Notes under the pieces: generated by a model
The model's input: only the letters and a program-made list of their open reading frames with translations
Told to the model about the DNA's origin: nothing
Database searches by the model: none
In this document: piece after piece, positions 6,028 to 9,052 of the stretch
How positions within the stretch are numbered: position 1 is the stretch's first letter
Layout of the letters: the number at the start of each line of letters is the position of its first letter
Virus record (IMG/VR): IMGVR_UViG_2636415418_000003
Length of the DNA: 12,783 bases
Origin: a virus
Taxonomy: Duplodnaviria; Heunggongvirae; Uroviricota; Caudoviricetes
Direction: 5' to 3' (one strand)
Translations under genes and position numbers: made by a program

Positions 6028-6057
6028 TTGACATATGTATCTATATTCGTGTAAGAT
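6028..6057 (+). promoter_or_regulatory. Candidate sigma-70 promoter for the 6212-9052 operon
   Basis: -35 ttgaca (6028-6033), 18-nt spacer, -10 taagat (6052-6057); about 155 nt upstream of the first ATG. Confidence 0.35.
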
Positions 6058-6211
6058 AATCTCAGATAAACACATTTCTTGTTTGCGGAGCAAATGACAT
6101 TCAGTCACCCGCAGGCGGGCATTTCTTGCTTTATCCTCTAGCCACGAAGTATCCCCGGCTGAACAAACCAACTAAACAAAAATTTAATAACCTCACTTAG
6201 GAGGAACCCCT

Positions 6212-6385
6212 ATGCGTAAACCAAAATGGCAAACCGTAGAGCAAATTGTAGCCGCTCTGCATGATGGAACAGCACGACTGGCAAACATTGAAAACCTTTA
6301 CTATGCGGCGATCCGCAACAACTATCCAGAACGTTTAGAACTATTTAAAAAGGCTCTGGAACAATATAAGAAGGAGAAAAAATGA
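6212..6385 (+). CDS. Small hypothetical protein (57 aa), first gene of the operon
   Basis: ATG at 6212 with consensus SD AGGAGG (6199-6204) at 7-nt spacing; translation MRKPKWQTVEQIVAALHDGTARLANIENLYYAAIRNNYPERLELFKKALEQYKKEKK; stop overlaps the next start (ATGA). Confidence 0.6.
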   Translation: MRKPKWQTVEQIVAALHDGTARLANIENLYYAAIRNNYPERLELFKKALEQYKKEKK

Positions 6386-6573
6386 AGGTAAATTTTAAAT
6401 CTGAAACTTTTGATGTGTTGATTCAGGTATCTCAAGACAAAAAAATCCCTATTACAAAACTGGTAGAAACCATTGTGAACCATATTGCAGCAGACAAAAA
6501 TAAAATAGATAACCTTATTGAAGAGGAAAAAAATGCAAAAAACGGAACAATCACTAAAACTAAAAATCGTTAA
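6382..6573 (+). CDS. Small hypothetical protein (63 aa); possible ribbon-helix-helix-like DNA binder
   Basis: ATG at 6382 with SD AAGGAG (6371-6376) at 5-nt spacing; ATGA overlap with the upstream stop; N-terminal beta-strand-like KVNFKS followed by two predicted helices; the 3' end overlaps the next gene by 41 nt in another frame, so the true C-terminus is uncertain. Confidence 0.5.
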   Translation: MKVNFKSETFDVLIQVSQDKKIPITKLVETIVNHIAADKNKIDNLIEEEKNAKNGTITKTKNR

Positions 6574-8002
6574 CGCTATCTGTGGCAGTGGAAAAAGCTA
6601 CAAACTCAAACAATATATAAAGAACAATCCTGATAAACGAATCCTAATAGCTGTCCCAACACACGAATTAGCTTCTCAAACACAATCAGACCTCCAGAAA
6701 CTCGGCATTCCTGCATATCACAACCAGGTAGATAATGGCGAGAGCGCAACACGATCACTAATAAACGCGCTGGATGATGATTTTGGGCGAAACATTGTTA
6801 TTGTGACTCACGAATGCCTACTACATTTTTGTTTATATGCGTATCGTGATGAGAAAACCCAGAATAAATTACATCTGTTTGACATCTATATAGATGAAAT
6901 CCCCACAGCCTGGTACGGGGCTGAGGTTGATTATAAAAATGAGGAATATCGAAACTCCAACTTCCCATTTCTCGGATGGTTAGAGGAACGGGACGGTCTA
7001 CGTTTTGTTCGTCATGAGGACAGAGAAAAATTCCTCGCCTATTACCAGAGTGAACACGCTAACAGTAAACTGTTAAAACAGGCTCTATTTGCCTTGCTCA
7101 CAGGGCAGGGAATGCTGTTAGAGGAGGATAAATATTTTTTCTCGTTTACTGCTAACCCAATCCTGTATAGCGCCCTGTGGGCTAAATCATTCACTGTGTT
7201 AGGCGCTAACGTTGGGATTAGTGAGTTTGCCTACGCCGCTAAAACTATTCTGAATGCAGAAATCTCGCTGGCTGATGATGAGTTGCAGCCGGACCTGATG
7301 CGCCGCGTTCATACTGACACAAAAAGAATTGAACTGATCCCGGTGTTTAACCAGAAATGTACAAAAAAACTACTGAGTGAAAATTACAGCGATATCCTGA
7401 ACGGGACACGCAGAGCGCTGAGAGACGGCTTTATTTATACCAGCAACAACGATGAGCAGTACAGCAACGGGTTTTACTACGCCTCACATGCTGATGACGT
7501 GTTAGAAGGTGGTGAGCGTGTTTCAATGGCATCCTATGGCCTGAACCATTACCAGCACCTGAATAAAGCCGCATTCTTGGGATGTGCAAACCTCGACAAA
7601 ACAACCATTGGACACTGGCGCAAGTATTGTGATCTAAATGGCTGGGACTGGCGTGAGTTAGAGGAGAAACGGCAGGCAGCACTGAACTACGAAAAGGTTT
7701 ATCAATTCGTTTCCCGCTGTTCTGTCCGTGTTAGAGGGAACAACAATAAACAGGTTTATATCATCCCTGATGTCGGTTGTGCTGAATATCTCAAACAACA
7801 TTATTTTCCAGATGCAGTGATCAAACCAGCGATGATAAAAGCTGAAAGGAAAAAGAGAGATACGTCTAAAGGCGATTCGAAACTTCAGTTAATCAAGGGA
7901 CTATTGGACGAAGGTTATAAACAGAGTCAGATTATTGCAATCACAGGTTTTAAAGAAAATTCAGTTAAGGGATACTTAAAAAGAATCCGAAAAGCAGCAT
8001 AA
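6533..8002 (+). CDS. P-loop NTPase with helicase-like motifs and a C-terminal sigma-70 region-4-like HTH (489 aa)
   Basis: Walker A CGSGKS near the N-terminus; PTHELA (resembles helicase motif Ia); Walker B-like LFDIYIDE; C-terminal IAITGFKENSVKGYLKRIRK resembles sigma region 4 / LuxR-type HTH. ATG at 6533 with SD agagga (6522-6527) preferred over the TTG at 6518 in the ORF track. Confidence 0.85.
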   Translation: MQKTEQSLKLKIVNAICGSGKSYKLKQYIKNNPDKRILIAVPTHELASQTQSDLQKLGIPAYHNQVDNGESATRSLINALDDDFGRNIVIVTHECLLHFCLYAYRDEKTQNKLHLFDIYIDEIPTAWYGAEVDYKNEEYRNSNFPFLGWLEERDGLRFVRHEDREKFLAYYQSEHANSKLLKQALFALLTGQGMLLEEDKYFFSFTANPILYSALWAKSFTVLGANVGISEFAYAAKTILNAEISLADDELQPDLMRRVHTDTKRIELIPVFNQKCTKKLLSENYSDILNGTRRALRDGFIYTSNNDEQYSNGFYYASHADDVLEGGERVSMASYGLNHYQHLNKAAFLGCANLDKTTIGHWRKYCDLNGWDWRELEEKRQAALNYEKVYQFVSRCSVRVRGNNNKQVYIIPDVGCAEYLKQHYFPDAVIKPAMIKAERKKRDTSKGDSKLQLIKGLLDEGYKQSQIIAITGFKENSVKGYLKRIRKAA

Positions 8003-8006
8003 ATCA

Positions 8007-8060
8007 ACGGCGTCCGAAAATCCGGACGGCGTTAAATTAAACCCACCCGAAAGTTCGGGT
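8007..8060 (+). other. Two consecutive GC-rich hairpins between the ATPase gene and the next gene; possible partial terminator or RNA-processing / protein-binding site
   Basis: Hairpin 1: 8007-8016 pairs with 8023-8032 (one mismatch). Hairpin 2: acccg (8045-8049) / cgggt (8056-8060). Neither is followed by a clear T tract. Confidence 0.3.
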
Positions 8061-8089
8061 ACCGTTAAATAATAATCATTGGAGGAATA

Positions 8090-8452
8090 TTGGCATATGC
8101 ACGACAAAATGTAGTATTTGAGGAATCAACAGAAATCGGATTTAACAGCAGAACAAAAAAAGTAAAAATCCCTAAGAAGTTAAAACCTCTAAAAATAATC
8201 AAACTCTACGAAGAATCTGCACTACTGACACCAGAAGAACAATCAATAATTAACTCTATGGCTGGTGTAACGTGGAAGCCCCGCCAGAGGTATTCCGGAT
8301 TCAAGTTCAATCGTGAACCGCTCAAATTTGAGTACCTGTTTGATAACATCAATGAGTATGAGGGCTGGTTAGAATTCAATCGCCTTGAGAATGAAAACTT
8401 TAATGGGAATGATCTTGGACTAGATTTTGATGCCAACGGCATCTCTGATTAA
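8090..8452 (+). CDS. Hypothetical protein (120 aa) with probable TTG start
   Basis: Only in-frame start after the upstream stop is TTG at 8090, preceded by SD GGAGGA (8081-8086) at a short 3-nt spacing; acidic C-terminus. Confidence 0.55.
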   Translation: MAYARQNVVFEESTEIGFNSRTKKVKIPKKLKPLKIIKLYEESALLTPEEQSIINSMAGVTWKPRQRYSGFKFNREPLKFEYLFDNINEYEGWLEFNRLENENFNGNDLGLDFDANGISD

Positions 8453-8480
8453 TTATTATAAAAATAACAGGAAGGTAAAA

Positions 8481-8768
8481 ATGATTGATTTTGAACAACA
8501 CAAAAACATTGTAGAACAGTTTGTAGAACAGCATTACCCGCTCGCGCATAGTCTGATGTTGGATAGTTATATTGACCCAGAAGCCTATTATTCAAACTAC
8601 CAAATGCTACTAGAAGCGATGAATAAATTGCCTGAACATCCTGAGTGCTTTTTAGAGTGGCTCTTAGAAGCTGATGCAGCTTTGTATATTAATCTGATGG
8701 AACTTGTTGTAATAACCAGAACTATTCATAACGTGTTTGAACAAGTTTCGTCTGGAGGGATGGAATAA
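8481..8768 (+). CDS. Acidic hypothetical protein (95 aa)
   Basis: ATG at 8481 with SD aggaagg (8469-8475) at 5-nt spacing, preferred over the TTG at 8427 in the ORF track, which would overlap the upstream gene. Confidence 0.65.
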   Translation: MIDFEQHKNIVEQFVEQHYPLAHSLMLDSYIDPEAYYSNYQMLLEAMNKLPEHPECFLEWLLEADAALYINLMELVVITRTIHNVFEQVSSGGME

Positions 8769-9052
8769 TGTTTAAACGGAATAAACCCTCGGAGCATCCA
8801 ACAATCACCTCTGGAAGATATCATACACAGGACGGGAATATTTATATCCAACGTGATGATGGTATCTGGAAGCAAAATGTTAACTACCTCGCTGCTATTC
8901 CTAATCAGTACGGATGCACCACCTACGAGGAACAATTTGAGAAGATTATAGGTCACATCGATAACGGTAAATTACGTGGTACATACGCCTCTACGATGCA
9001 TTATAAAATGATAGATGGTAAACTCTATAGATTTAATGAGAAAACGTCTTAG
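8768..9052 (+). CDS. Hypothetical protein (94 aa) with repeated DG-x-IY / DGKLY beta-hairpin-like motifs
   Basis: ATG overlaps the upstream stop (TAATG); SD ggaggg (8754-8759) at 8-nt spacing; last gene of the operon. Confidence 0.65.
   Translation: MFKRNKPSEHPTITSGRYHTQDGNIYIQRDDGIWKQNVNYLAAIPNQYGCTTYEEQFEKIIGHIDNGKLRGTYASTMHYKMIDGKLYRFNEKTS

What the first reader, a model, noticed from the sequence alone, without database searches (positions are those of the whole stretch)
6028..9052. Six-gene translationally coupled operon built around a P-loop ATPase fused to a sigma-region-4-like HTH
All six genes are co-directional, with ATGA or TAATG overlaps and strong SD sites. The 489-aa protein combines Walker A (CGSGKS), PTHELA and Walker B (DIYIDE) motifs with a C-terminal HTH resembling sigma-70 region 4; I do not recognise this combination as a standard replication, terminase or defence protein. 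The five small partners have no recognisable family. Plausible roles are a satellite replication/packaging-control module or an anti-phage defence operon carried on an integrative element.
Basis: partly seen in the sequence, partly recalled or inferred. Interest (0 to 1): 0.7.

Follow-up and report, generated by a model that had tools for sequence, protein, structure and literature searches.

The report
Replication module of a phage-satellite-like island
The six genes are the early transcription unit of a 13.5-kb mobile island that looks like a phage satellite, and its large protein is an uncharacterised DNA helicase with a DNA-binding tail that most likely starts the island's own replication.

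Summary
The six co-directional genes exist and are coding, but only three junctions overlap (g1/g2, g2/g3, g5/g6). An 87-nt gap with two hairpins separates g3 from g4.

The unit lies in a 13.5-kb element bounded by a 34-nt tRNA-like direct repeat; an empty site exists in E. coli D3. The element also carries a lambda gpE-like capsid gene, a ~600-aa coiled-coil protein and two tyrosine recombinases. The same architecture recurs across Enterobacterales.

Three observations point to replication:
- Every helicase homologue whose context I examined sits in this element family.
- In sister elements its slot holds small proteins with weak replication-initiator matches.
- Long homologues carry a C-terminal DNA-primase domain in place of the HTH.

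g2 is probably a ribbon-helix-helix regulator. g1 and g4-g6 remain unknown. No defence-system match was found for the operon.

Verdict: the early replication/regulation unit of a satellite-like element that fits none of the four satellite families modelled by SatelliteFinder. It is a new variant of a known kind. Function is inferred, not shown.

The parts
1143..1176 (.). Left copy of the 34-nt direct repeat (tRNA 3'-end-like, CGAAGGTCGTAGGTTCGACTCCTATTATCGGCAC) that bounds the element. The right copy lies beyond the window, at about 14679-14712 by extrapolation from L003.
   Evidence: E. coli D3 carries the unoccupied site, with the two flanks joined at a single repeat copy.
5320..5945 (.). 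Highly conserved AT-rich noncoding block that travels with the helicase cassette. Candidate origin or other cis-acting region.
   Evidence: Almost every column is invariant among the window, L015 and L016, whereas the g3 core is 85-89% identical at nucleotide level. It is absent from relatives that carry another replication gene.
5431..5571 (.). Cluster of four iteron-like copies of ATAGTTAATAATCAT (three direct, one inverted) around an AT-rich core.
   Evidence: 7 matches in the window against 0.9 expected, 4 of them here..
6028..6057 (+). Early promoter-like site, TTGACA-18-TAAGAT.
   Evidence: Both hexamers are conserved in L015 and in the otherwise diverged L016.
6212..6385 (+). g1, 57 aa. 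First gene of the unit, present family-wide with both replication-gene types. Function unknown.
   Evidence: It is 43-46% identical in L001, L002 and L016. No Pfam, PHROG or NCBIfam hit.
6382..6573 (+). g2, 63 aa. Probable ribbon-helix-helix DNA-binding protein. Overlaps g1 by 4 nt and g3 by 41 nt.
   Evidence: family members hit HicB, RHH_4, TacA1, ParG, NikA-like and RHH_1, all below threshold. hhalign places it in register with CopG, but with low probability.
6533..8002 (+). g3, 489 aa. SF2 DNA helicase of XPD/DinG-like fold with a C-terminal HTH. Inferred replication initiator/helicase.
6581..6598 (+). Walker A / motif I, CGSGKS (residues 17-22).
   Evidence: Invariant in 39 homologues.
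6881..6898 (+). Walker B / motif II, DIYIDE (residues 117-122).
   Evidence: D121 and E122 are invariant.
7700..7729 (+). Motif VI-like YQFVSRCSVR (residues 390-399) with arginine fingers.
   Evidence: Q391, R395 and R399 are invariant.
7865..7996 (+). C-terminal three-helix HTH domain (residues 445-488). This segment is exchanged between otherwise close homologues.
8008..8079 (+). 72-nt insertion forming two hairpins between g3 and g4. Absent from L015 and L016. Not a clear + strand terminator.
8090..8452 (+). g4, 120 aa, TTG start after GGAGG. Unknown function.
   Evidence: Restricted to the E. coli/Klebsiella/Raoultella subgroup.
8481..8768 (+). g5, 95 aa, acidic and helical. Unknown function.
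8768..9052 (+). g6, 94 aa. Variable accessory gene under weak constraint.
   Evidence: Absent from L002 and L015.
9112..9127 (+). Conserved short hairpin at the end of the early unit, directly upstream of the late promoter.
9136..9436 (+). Near-consensus late promoter (9136-9164), a structured leader and an intrinsic terminator (9402-9424), just upstream of the capsid-gene operon. Adjacent to the finding, not part of it.
   Evidence: 8 pairs with compensatory changes among 5 sequences. No Rfam match.

Best explanation
Window 6028-9052 is the early transcription unit of a 13.5-kb integrative element that looks like a phage satellite.

A near-consensus promoter drives, in order:
- g1 (unknown function);
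- g2, a probable ribbon-helix-helix protein, which I infer autoregulates the promoter region that is exchanged together with it;
- g3;
- the small accessory genes g4-g6.

g3 is an SF2 helicase of XPD/DinG-like fold whose C-terminal HTH tethers it to a specific DNA site. I infer that g3 is the element's replication initiator-helicase. It would open the element's origin and unwind it. Priming and synthesis would be left to host or helper enzymes, because this version carries an HTH where long homologues carry a primase domain. The candidate origin is the conserved AT-rich, iteron-bearing block at 5320-5945, which is inherited together with g1-g3.

Shown: the ORFs, motifs, fold, element boundaries, recurrent architecture, cassette exchange and primase fusions.
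Inferred: the replication function, the origin position, g2 autoregulation and any role of g4-g6.
For: 2. Context. All 86 database homologues come from Enterobacterales or have no source name. Every homologue I looked up lies in the same architecture: short recombinase, about 1 kb of noncoding DNA, g1, g2, helicase, small genes, capsid gene, ~600-aa protein, integrase. One partial exception is an Enterobacter lineage that has lost the capsid module.
3. Slot equivalence. In L001, L002, L018, L020 and L033 the slot holds 139-157-aa DUF6945/HTH_36 proteins. Those of L001 and L002 hit PHROG 'replication initiation protein' families at E 9e-6 to 2e-4. The exchanged DNA runs from about 5170-5320 to about 8070, that is the noncoding block plus g1-g3.
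4. Domain fusion. Of 42 long homologues (599-924 aa), 13 hit phrog_9765 'DNA primase' (best E 5.9e-10), and others hit further primase or helicase-primase families. Where checked, the primase hits map to residues about 520-715, after the helicase core. An invariant DxD lies in that extension.
5. The HTH segment is swapped between proteins that are otherwise 85-92% identical, as expected of a specificity module.
6. The element is discrete and mobile: a 34-nt direct repeat bounds it and an empty site exists.
7. Satellites as a class carry their own, mutually non-homologous, primase-replicase modules (PMC10085698).
Against: - No experiment bears on this protein or on any close homologue.
- The closest solved folds are monomeric repair or CRISPR-associated helicases, not replicative helicases.
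- The candidate origin is almost identical in three elements whose HTH recognition helices differ, so the HTH target is probably not there. I found no sequence that co-varies with the HTH.
- The window has no DnaA boxes.
- No plasmid uses this protein: there was one weak hit among 72,556 plasmid records.
- The replication-initiator matches of the alternative slot genes are weak.
- In PICIs the origin lies 3' of rep (PMC6092414). In L015 and L016 there is no intergenic space at that position.
- Distant homologues in T4-like phages lack the HTH and have no known role.
Confidence: 0.55

Rival explanations
1. g3 is an interference or defence helicase. It would act on helper-phage or other invading DNA, as CasDinG, Hna or DdmD do, and g4-g6 would be its partners or other anti-phage effectors.
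Against: PADLOC hits are weak (best E 1.7e-4) and mostly confined to the N-terminal ATP-binding region. The protein has no nuclease or effector domain. The gene occupies the conserved replication slot rather than a cargo position. Long homologues are fused to primase domains, not to nucleases. The element's clear defence candidate is elsewhere, at 1979-2680.
Confidence: 0.12
2. g3 is an accessory DNA translocase for recombination, concatemer processing or packaging. The element would be replicated by host or helper initiators.
For: XPD/DinG-type helicases act in repair and recombination. Homologues in T4-like phages are stand-alone accessory genes. No HTH target was found near the candidate origin.
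Against: No other replication gene is detectable in helicase-type elements. The slot alternates with initiator-like proteins. Primase fusions point to priming rather than packaging. No terminase-like domain is present.
Confidence: 0.13
3. g3 is an ATP-dependent transcription regulator. Its HTH would bind a promoter and the motor would remodel RNA polymerase or DNA, switching on the late capsid operon through or past the 9402-9424 terminator.
For: The HTH resembles sigma region 4 or LuxR-type domains in some homologues. The late operon lies behind a structured leader that ends in a terminator, so it needs some activator or antiterminator.
Against: The late promoter and leader are conserved in relatives that lack g3 altogether (L001, L002), so g3 cannot be their general activator. 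The HTH varies while the leader does not.
Confidence: 0.07
4. The unit is a decaying remnant: chance ORFs or a dead element with no current function.
For: g6 shows weak constraint. A 72-nt insertion sits between g3 and g4. The helicase cassette was not found in 5,426 complete E. coli genomes.
Against: g3-g5 show a strong excess of third-position substitutions. Intact copies occur in many genera and in at least 46 E. coli contigs. The motifs are invariant. The att repeats are intact and an empty site exists.
Confidence: 0.03

Closest known systems
Satellite phage P4 alpha protein (primase, SF3 helicase and C-terminal origin-binding domain)
   Same: One polypeptide in a satellite's early region joins a DNA motor to a site-specific DNA-binding domain and drives the satellite's own replication (PMC6092414 and PMC10085698; domain details from my own knowledge).
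   Different: Alpha is an SF3 hexameric helicase with an N-terminal primase; g3 is an SF2 XPD/DinG-like helicase without a primase. There is no sequence similarity. No P4 components (Psu, Delta, Sid, epsilon) were detected in the element.
PICI/SaPI primase-replicase (Pri-Rep) module
   Same: Position in the early operon of an integrase-bounded element of roughly 10-15 kb. The replicon is exchanged as a cassette with its cis region. Iteron-like repeats flank an AT-rich core.
   Different: It is a different protein family, with no hit. The PICI origin lies immediately 3' of rep (PMC6092414), whereas here the candidate lies about 600 nt upstream of the operon. No AlpA or Stl homologue was detected.
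XPD/Rad3/DinG family of SF2 5'-3' DNA helicases, including CRISPR type IV CasDinG
   Same: The best structural matches by two methods: two RecA-like lobes with an insertion in the first lobe.
   Different: No conserved four-cysteine Fe-S cluster (only C17 is invariant). The protein is smaller, carries an added HTH, and shares only 12-14% identity. Polarity is untested.
phrog_2467 / phrog_31024 phage helicases and helicase-primase fusions
   Same: True sequence homologues (E 3e-40 and 1.5e-17). They share the helicase core.
   Different: They are uncharacterised. The long forms carry a primase-like C-terminal domain where g3 has the HTH. The T4-like phage forms (Aeh1 gp55.2) have neither.
CyRepA1/CyRepA2 cyanobacterial plasmid Rep proteins (DUF3854 plus DEXDc)
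   Same: A precedent, tested experimentally, for a plasmid replication protein that contains a DEXDc-type helicase domain (PMC10079941).
   Different: The match is only at the P-loop (NCBIfam E 0.0077, 15 bits against a cutoff of 200). The domain order differs and there is no HTH.
CopG-RepB type arrangement (small ribbon-helix-helix regulator translated just ahead of the initiator)
   Same: g2 is a probable RHH protein whose gene overlaps the start of g3, and this overlap is conserved in all helicase-type elements. The comparison with pMV158 rests on my own knowledge.
   Different: RepB is a rolling-circle nuclease. The RHH assignment for g2 is sub-threshold, and no operator has been defined.
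SaPIbov5 Ccm and the PmCI172 capsid-protein homologue
   Same: These are satellites that carry a single major-capsid-protein homologue thought to form satellite-sized capsids (PMC6092414). This parallels the gpE-like gene at 10069-11109.
   Different: This concerns the element's late module, not the finding itself. Here the capsid gene is accompanied by a ~600-aa coiled-coil protein, and no terS was detected.

Membership tests
SF2 helicase superfamily | Motifs I (GxGKS/T), Ia, II (DExx) and VI (QxxxRxxxR) on two RecA-like lobes | tested here: met
XPD/Rad3/DinG helicases | Overall fold with an insertion (Arch-like) in the first lobe | tested here: inconclusive
XPD/Rad3/DinG helicases | Four-cysteine Fe-S cluster domain (lost in some DinG-type helicases) | tested here: not met
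   Only C17, inside Walker A, is invariant in the alignment; there is no conserved cysteine quartet.
XPD/Rad3/DinG helicases | 5'-3' unwinding polarity | not testable with these tools
   Needs a biochemical assay.
Sigma-70 region 4 / LuxR-type HTH | Profile match to Sigma70_r4, GerE or a related HTH family | tested here: inconclusive
   The window protein has no Pfam HTH hit at E<=0.1, only phrog_3855 at E 0.034. Homologues hit GerE, HTH_23 or Sigma70_r4_2. The model shows three helices at residues 445-488.
Terminase large subunit | Terminase ATPase plus RNase H-like nuclease domains | tested here: not met
   No terminase family in Pfam, PHROGs or NCBIfam. The fold is SF2.
Characterised replication initiators (P4 alpha / D5-type primase-helicase, RepA_N, Rep_3, lambda O, DnaA) | Profile match to one of these families | tested here: not met
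   None was found. The CyRepA1 hit is far below its cutoff.
Known anti-phage defence systems (PADLOC-DB 2.0) | Significant match of the operon's proteins to a system component | tested here: not met
   g3 gives only weak partial helicase hits (E >= 1.7e-4). g1, g2, g5 and g6 give none, and g4 gives one at E 0.035. DefenseFinder was not available.
Ribbon-helix-helix proteins (for g2) | Profile match above threshold, or a beta-alpha-alpha fold | tested here: inconclusive
   Several RHH-type families are hit by different family members at E 0.005-0.12, all below cutoff. The sequence pattern fits. No structure could be predicted with a usable alignment.
P4-like satellites (SatelliteFinder definition, PMC10085698) | Integrase plus Psu, Delta, Sid, AlpA-type regulator, epsilon and alpha | tested here: not met
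   Only the integrase is present. The other components gave no hit in any scanned protein of the element. SatelliteFinder itself was not run.
PICI (SatelliteFinder definition, PMC10085698) | Integrase, AlpA/MerR/Stl regulator, primase-replicase, capsid-morphogenesis gene and terS | tested here: inconclusive
   An integrase and a capsid-protein gene are present. No AlpA, MerR, Stl or Pri-Rep profile hit was found. The 67-aa protein hits a terS PHROG only at E 0.029. The element is functionally analogous, but homology is not shown.
Capsid-forming PICI (cfPICI) | Eleven core components, including terL and head-tail adaptor and connector genes; portal is among the cfPICI components listed | tested here: not met
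   The major capsid protein is the only recognisable structural component.
Integrative mobile element | Direct repeats at both ends, an integrase, and an unoccupied site in another genome | tested here: met
   A 34-nt repeat lies at both junctions, and the empty site is in E. coli D3. A 420-aa integrase sits at the right end.

The most novel reading that the evidence does not exclude
The window samples an undescribed family of 12-14-kb phage satellites that is widespread in Enterobacterales. Its members carry their own gpE-like capsid protein, a tape-measure-like protein and a late operon gated by a structured leader ending in a terminator. In a large subset, replication is started by a new class of initiator: a monomeric XPD/DinG-like SF2 helicase targeted by a swappable HTH. 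That protein would be the primase-less sibling of an uncharacterised phage helicase-primase family.
Probability: 0.3. Interest if true: 0.75.

Novelty: new variant of a known kind. Interest (0 to 1): 0.55.

Why it matters
Satellites shape phage-bacterium dynamics and move defence, virulence and resistance genes. Current detection tools model only four satellite families (PMC10085698).

This element fits none of them, yet it is common in Klebsiella, E. coli and their relatives. Islands of this type are therefore probably being scored as 'integrase-only' islands or as defective prophages.

If g3 is the initiator, it adds an SF2 XPD/DinG-type motor to the known origin-opening helicases, which are SF3, AAA+ or DnaB-loading systems. 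It would also give a first functional handle on a family of at least 1,400 clusters (at 50% identity) of phage and satellite helicases, many of them fused to primases.

The compact cassette (cis region, g1-g3) could also serve as a small replicon for enterobacteria.

Tried and rejected
- Sequence searches of g2, g4, g5 and g6 against PDB chains found nothing meaningful. The same was true of g3.
- AlphaFold2 of g4 with 34 close homologues gave pLDDT 46. The model is unusable, and no fold search was run on it.
- The afdb50 fold library was unavailable.
- Rfam found no match at gathering score or at E<=1. ARAGORN found no tRNA, so the att repeat is only a partial tRNA.
- No DnaA boxes, no LexA boxes and no lambda cosN were found.
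- The 15-mer CTTCCTTGGGAATCC scanned against IMG/VR gave 97 hits, all chance; none encodes a family protein.
- I looked for DNA that co-varies with the swapped HTH. The candidate origin, the leader, g1 and g2 do not track it, so no target was identified.
- The terminase and defence-operon readings were rejected for lack of any supporting profile.
- A profile search of the primase-like extension against PDB found nothing, so the primase assignment rests on PHROG hits and a DxD motif.
- Six completed literature searches found no description of this element family or of the helicase. This is absence within the held library only.

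
Full report
**1. The observation**

The + strand carries six ORFs:
- g1, 6212-6385, 57 aa
- g2, 6382-6573, 63 aa
- g3, 6533-8002, 489 aa
- g4, 8090-8452, 120 aa, TTG start
- g5, 8481-8768, 95 aa
- g6, 8768-9052, 94 aa

The same genes are called in public E. coli assemblies. The finding's start, 6028, is the -35 hexamer of a promoter-like site, TTGACA-18-TAAGAT. Both hexamers survive in a relative whose surrounding sequence has diverged.

Walker A (CGSGKS), PTHELA and Walker B (DIYIDE) are present and conserved.

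Substitutions against relatives fall mainly at third codon positions in g3, g4 and g5. The excess is moderate in g1 and weak in g6. These are real genes.

The coupling claim is only partly right:
- g1/g2 overlap by ATGA, g2/g3 by 41 nt and g5/g6 by TAATG.
- g3 and g4 are 87 nt apart. The gap holds a 72-nt insertion that folds into two hairpins and is missing from close relatives.
- g4 and g5 are 28 nt apart.

**2. The 489-aa protein**

Pfam places the N-terminal part in DEAD/ResIII. PHROGs places the whole core in phrog_2467, which has no known function.

A 39-sequence alignment shows invariant helicase motifs I, Ia, II and VI. The AlphaFold2 model is confident, with pLDDT 88 and pTM 0.81. It has two RecA-like lobes, an insertion in the first lobe, a flexible linker and a three-helix C-terminal domain at residues 445-488.

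The HTH of the window protein has no Pfam hit of its own. Homologues hit GerE, HTH_23 or Sigma70_r4_2. 'Sigma-region-4-like' is therefore acceptable, but the domain is a generic tri-helical HTH.

No terminase, known-initiator or defence profile matches.

**3. The surroundings**

The window's left flank ends in a 34-nt sequence that looks like the 3' end of a tRNA. The same 34 nt recur beyond the window's right end, after a 420-aa integrase. E. coli D3 has the two flanks joined at a single copy of the repeat, which is an empty site. The element is therefore a discrete 13.5-kb insertion.

From left to right it carries:
- a DUF2971 gene that matches the candidate defence family PDC-S31;
- a 185-aa tyrosine recombinase made of the catalytic domain only;
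- a 140-aa coiled-coil/zinc-ribbon protein;
- about 900 nt of AT-rich noncoding DNA;
- the six genes;
- a near-consensus promoter followed by a structured leader that ends in a terminator;
- then 74-aa and 116-aa proteins, a lambda gpE-like major capsid protein (Pfam E 1e-19), a 67-aa protein and a 603-aa coiled-coil protein with a weak tape-measure match.

**4. Related elements**

Every helicase homologue I located lies in this same architecture. Hosts are E. coli, Klebsiella, Raoultella, Citrobacter, Enterobacter, Buttiauxella, Pseudenterobacter and Yersinia. The Yersinia helicase is only 25% identical. One Enterobacter lineage has lost the capsid module. Five examples occur in IMG/VR.

The element does not meet the published definitions of P4-like satellites or cfPICIs (PMC10085698). 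It shares only an integrase and a capsid-type gene with the PICI definition. A single capsid-protein homologue in a satellite has precedents in SaPIbov5 and PmCI172 (PMC6092414). Six completed literature searches found no description of this family.

**5. Modularity**

In sister elements L001, L002, L018, L020 and L033 the g3 slot is occupied by 139-157-aa DUF6945/HTH_36 proteins. Those of L001 and L002 match PHROG 'replication initiation protein' families weakly, at E 9e-6 to 2e-4.

The nucleotide comparison shows that the exchanged cassette runs from about 5170-5320 to about 8070. That is the noncoding block plus g1-g3.

Within helicase-type elements, two segments are exchanged separately: the promoter-proximal region with g1 and g2 (5932-6521), and the HTH-coding segment (7863-8072).

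g1 and g2 homologues exist with both replication-gene types. g4 and g5 are confined to the E. coli/Klebsiella/Raoultella subgroup, and g6 is variable. Other members hold other small genes there, including a Dit_like gene.

Capsid alleles assort independently of the replication type.

**6. Evidence for replication**

An exhaustive profile search found 1,408 cluster representatives at E<=1e-3. Many are 770-870 aa, with the helicase core at the N-terminus followed by an extension of about 330 aa.

Of 42 long members, 13 hit phrog_9765 'DNA primase' (best E 5.9e-10). Others hit two further primase families or a helicase-primase family. Where checked, the hits map to the extension at residues about 520-715, which has an invariant DxD.

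The primase-like domain therefore follows the helicase core, where g3 carries its HTH. Together with the slot equivalence and the absence of any other replication gene, this makes initiator-helicase the best reading. A DEXDc-containing plasmid Rep has an experimental precedent in CyRepA1 (PMC10079941), but g3 is not a member of that family.

**7. Where the origin might be**

Positions 5320-5945 are almost invariant among the window, a Klebsiella-type contig (L015) and Raoultella (L016). This exceeds the 85-89% nucleotide identity of the g3 core. The block holds four iteron-like copies of ATAGTTAATAATCAT around an AT-rich core.

It is inherited with the helicase cassette, which makes it a candidate origin. 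However, it does not vary with the HTH, so the HTH target remains unknown. There are no DnaA boxes.

**8. The small proteins**

g2-family members give several sub-threshold hits to ribbon-helix-helix families: HicB, RHH_4, TacA1, ParG, NikA-like and RHH_1. They also show the beta-alpha-alpha sequence pattern.

The g2/g3 overlap is conserved in all helicase-type elements. g2 is exchanged together with the promoter-proximal DNA. I therefore infer an autoregulatory RHH protein.

g1 and g4-g6 gave nothing in Pfam, PHROGs, NCBIfam or PADLOC. Sequence searches of g4-g6 against PDB also gave nothing. The g4 model was unusable.

**9. Verdict**

The finding is the early replication/regulation unit of a satellite-like integrative element.
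- The 'defence operon' option is not supported.
- The 'six coupled genes' description is overstated.

The function of g3 is inferred from context and domain fusions, not shown; I put it at about 0.55. It is a new variant of a known kind (a satellite replicon with an initiator-helicase), built on an unusual SF2 motor.

Noticed in passing
window 9136-9436: A near-consensus promoter (TTGACA, 17 nt, TG-extended TATTAT) is followed by a conserved leader with three helices. Eight base pairs show compensatory changes among five sequences. The leader ends in an intrinsic terminator at 9402-9424, just before the capsid operon (ATG at 9466). This resembles late-gene control by antitermination in lambdoid phages. 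There is no Rfam match.
   Followed up: partly
window 5320-5945: About 620 nt of noncoding DNA is more conserved across E. coli, Klebsiella-type and Raoultella elements than the adjacent helicase gene. GC-rich hairpins are embedded in AT-rich iteron-like repeats.
   Followed up: partly
window 5642-5710: A 69-nt block with sharp edges is 97% identical to an unannotated spot in Klebsiella phage vB_KpM_FBKp34 (MW394390.1 101240-101308). That spot lies 134 nt downstream of an IS200/IS605-type TnpB-like gene. It is the only match among 50,697 phage records. Unexplained.
   Followed up: partly
window 1979-2680: A 233-aa DUF2971 protein matches the PADLOC candidate defence family PDC-S31 (E 1e-36). 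It sits next to the left end of the element and is probably cargo.
   Followed up: no
window 3524-4081 (- strand): A 185-aa tyrosine recombinase consists of the catalytic domain only, with its conserved R, H-x-x-R, H and Y residues intact. It is conserved in the whole element family and has relatives in marine Gammaproteobacteria and other phyla. Its role beside the full-length integrase is unknown.
   Followed up: partly
window 10069-11109 and 11479 to the window end (the full gene is at L003 14947-16758): The element carries a lambda gpE-like major capsid protein and a 603-aa coiled-coil protein with a weak tape-measure match. Capsid alleles (23-40% identical) assort independently of the replication type. 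Some relatives add a Dit_like gene (L015, L039, L040). No portal, terminase or protease was found.
   Followed up: partly
window 4091-4883: A second long noncoding stretch of about 790 nt lies between the short recombinase and the 140-aa gene, and is conserved in relatives. Together with 5307-6211 and 9053-9465, an unusual share of the element is noncoding.
   Followed up: no
window 8008-8079: A 72-nt insertion forms two hairpins, each followed by TTAAAT. It is present only in this lineage and lies at the right boundary of the exchanged replication cassette.
   Followed up: partly
loci L014, L015, L040 and many Logan contigs listed: The element is very often assembled as a stand-alone contig of 12-13.4 kb. 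L015 has a 15-nt terminal overlap. This could reflect att repeats breaking the assembly, or circular or amplified forms.
   Followed up: partly
window 1-1176: The left flank is 100% identical to many E. coli genomes and contains a '4-fold beta flower protein' gene. Positions 869-1066 are 92% identical to phage 21 and lambda-hybrid DNA. The element sits in a tandem array of islands whose left neighbour differs between genomes; the right neighbour is always an integrase plus AlpA island.
   Followed up: partly
window 5320-8002: The helicase cassette has no megablast match in 5,426 complete E. coli genomes, although the backbone has relatives there. Its closest relatives are in Klebsiella and Raoultella, which suggests a recombinant acquired between genera.
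   Followed up: partly
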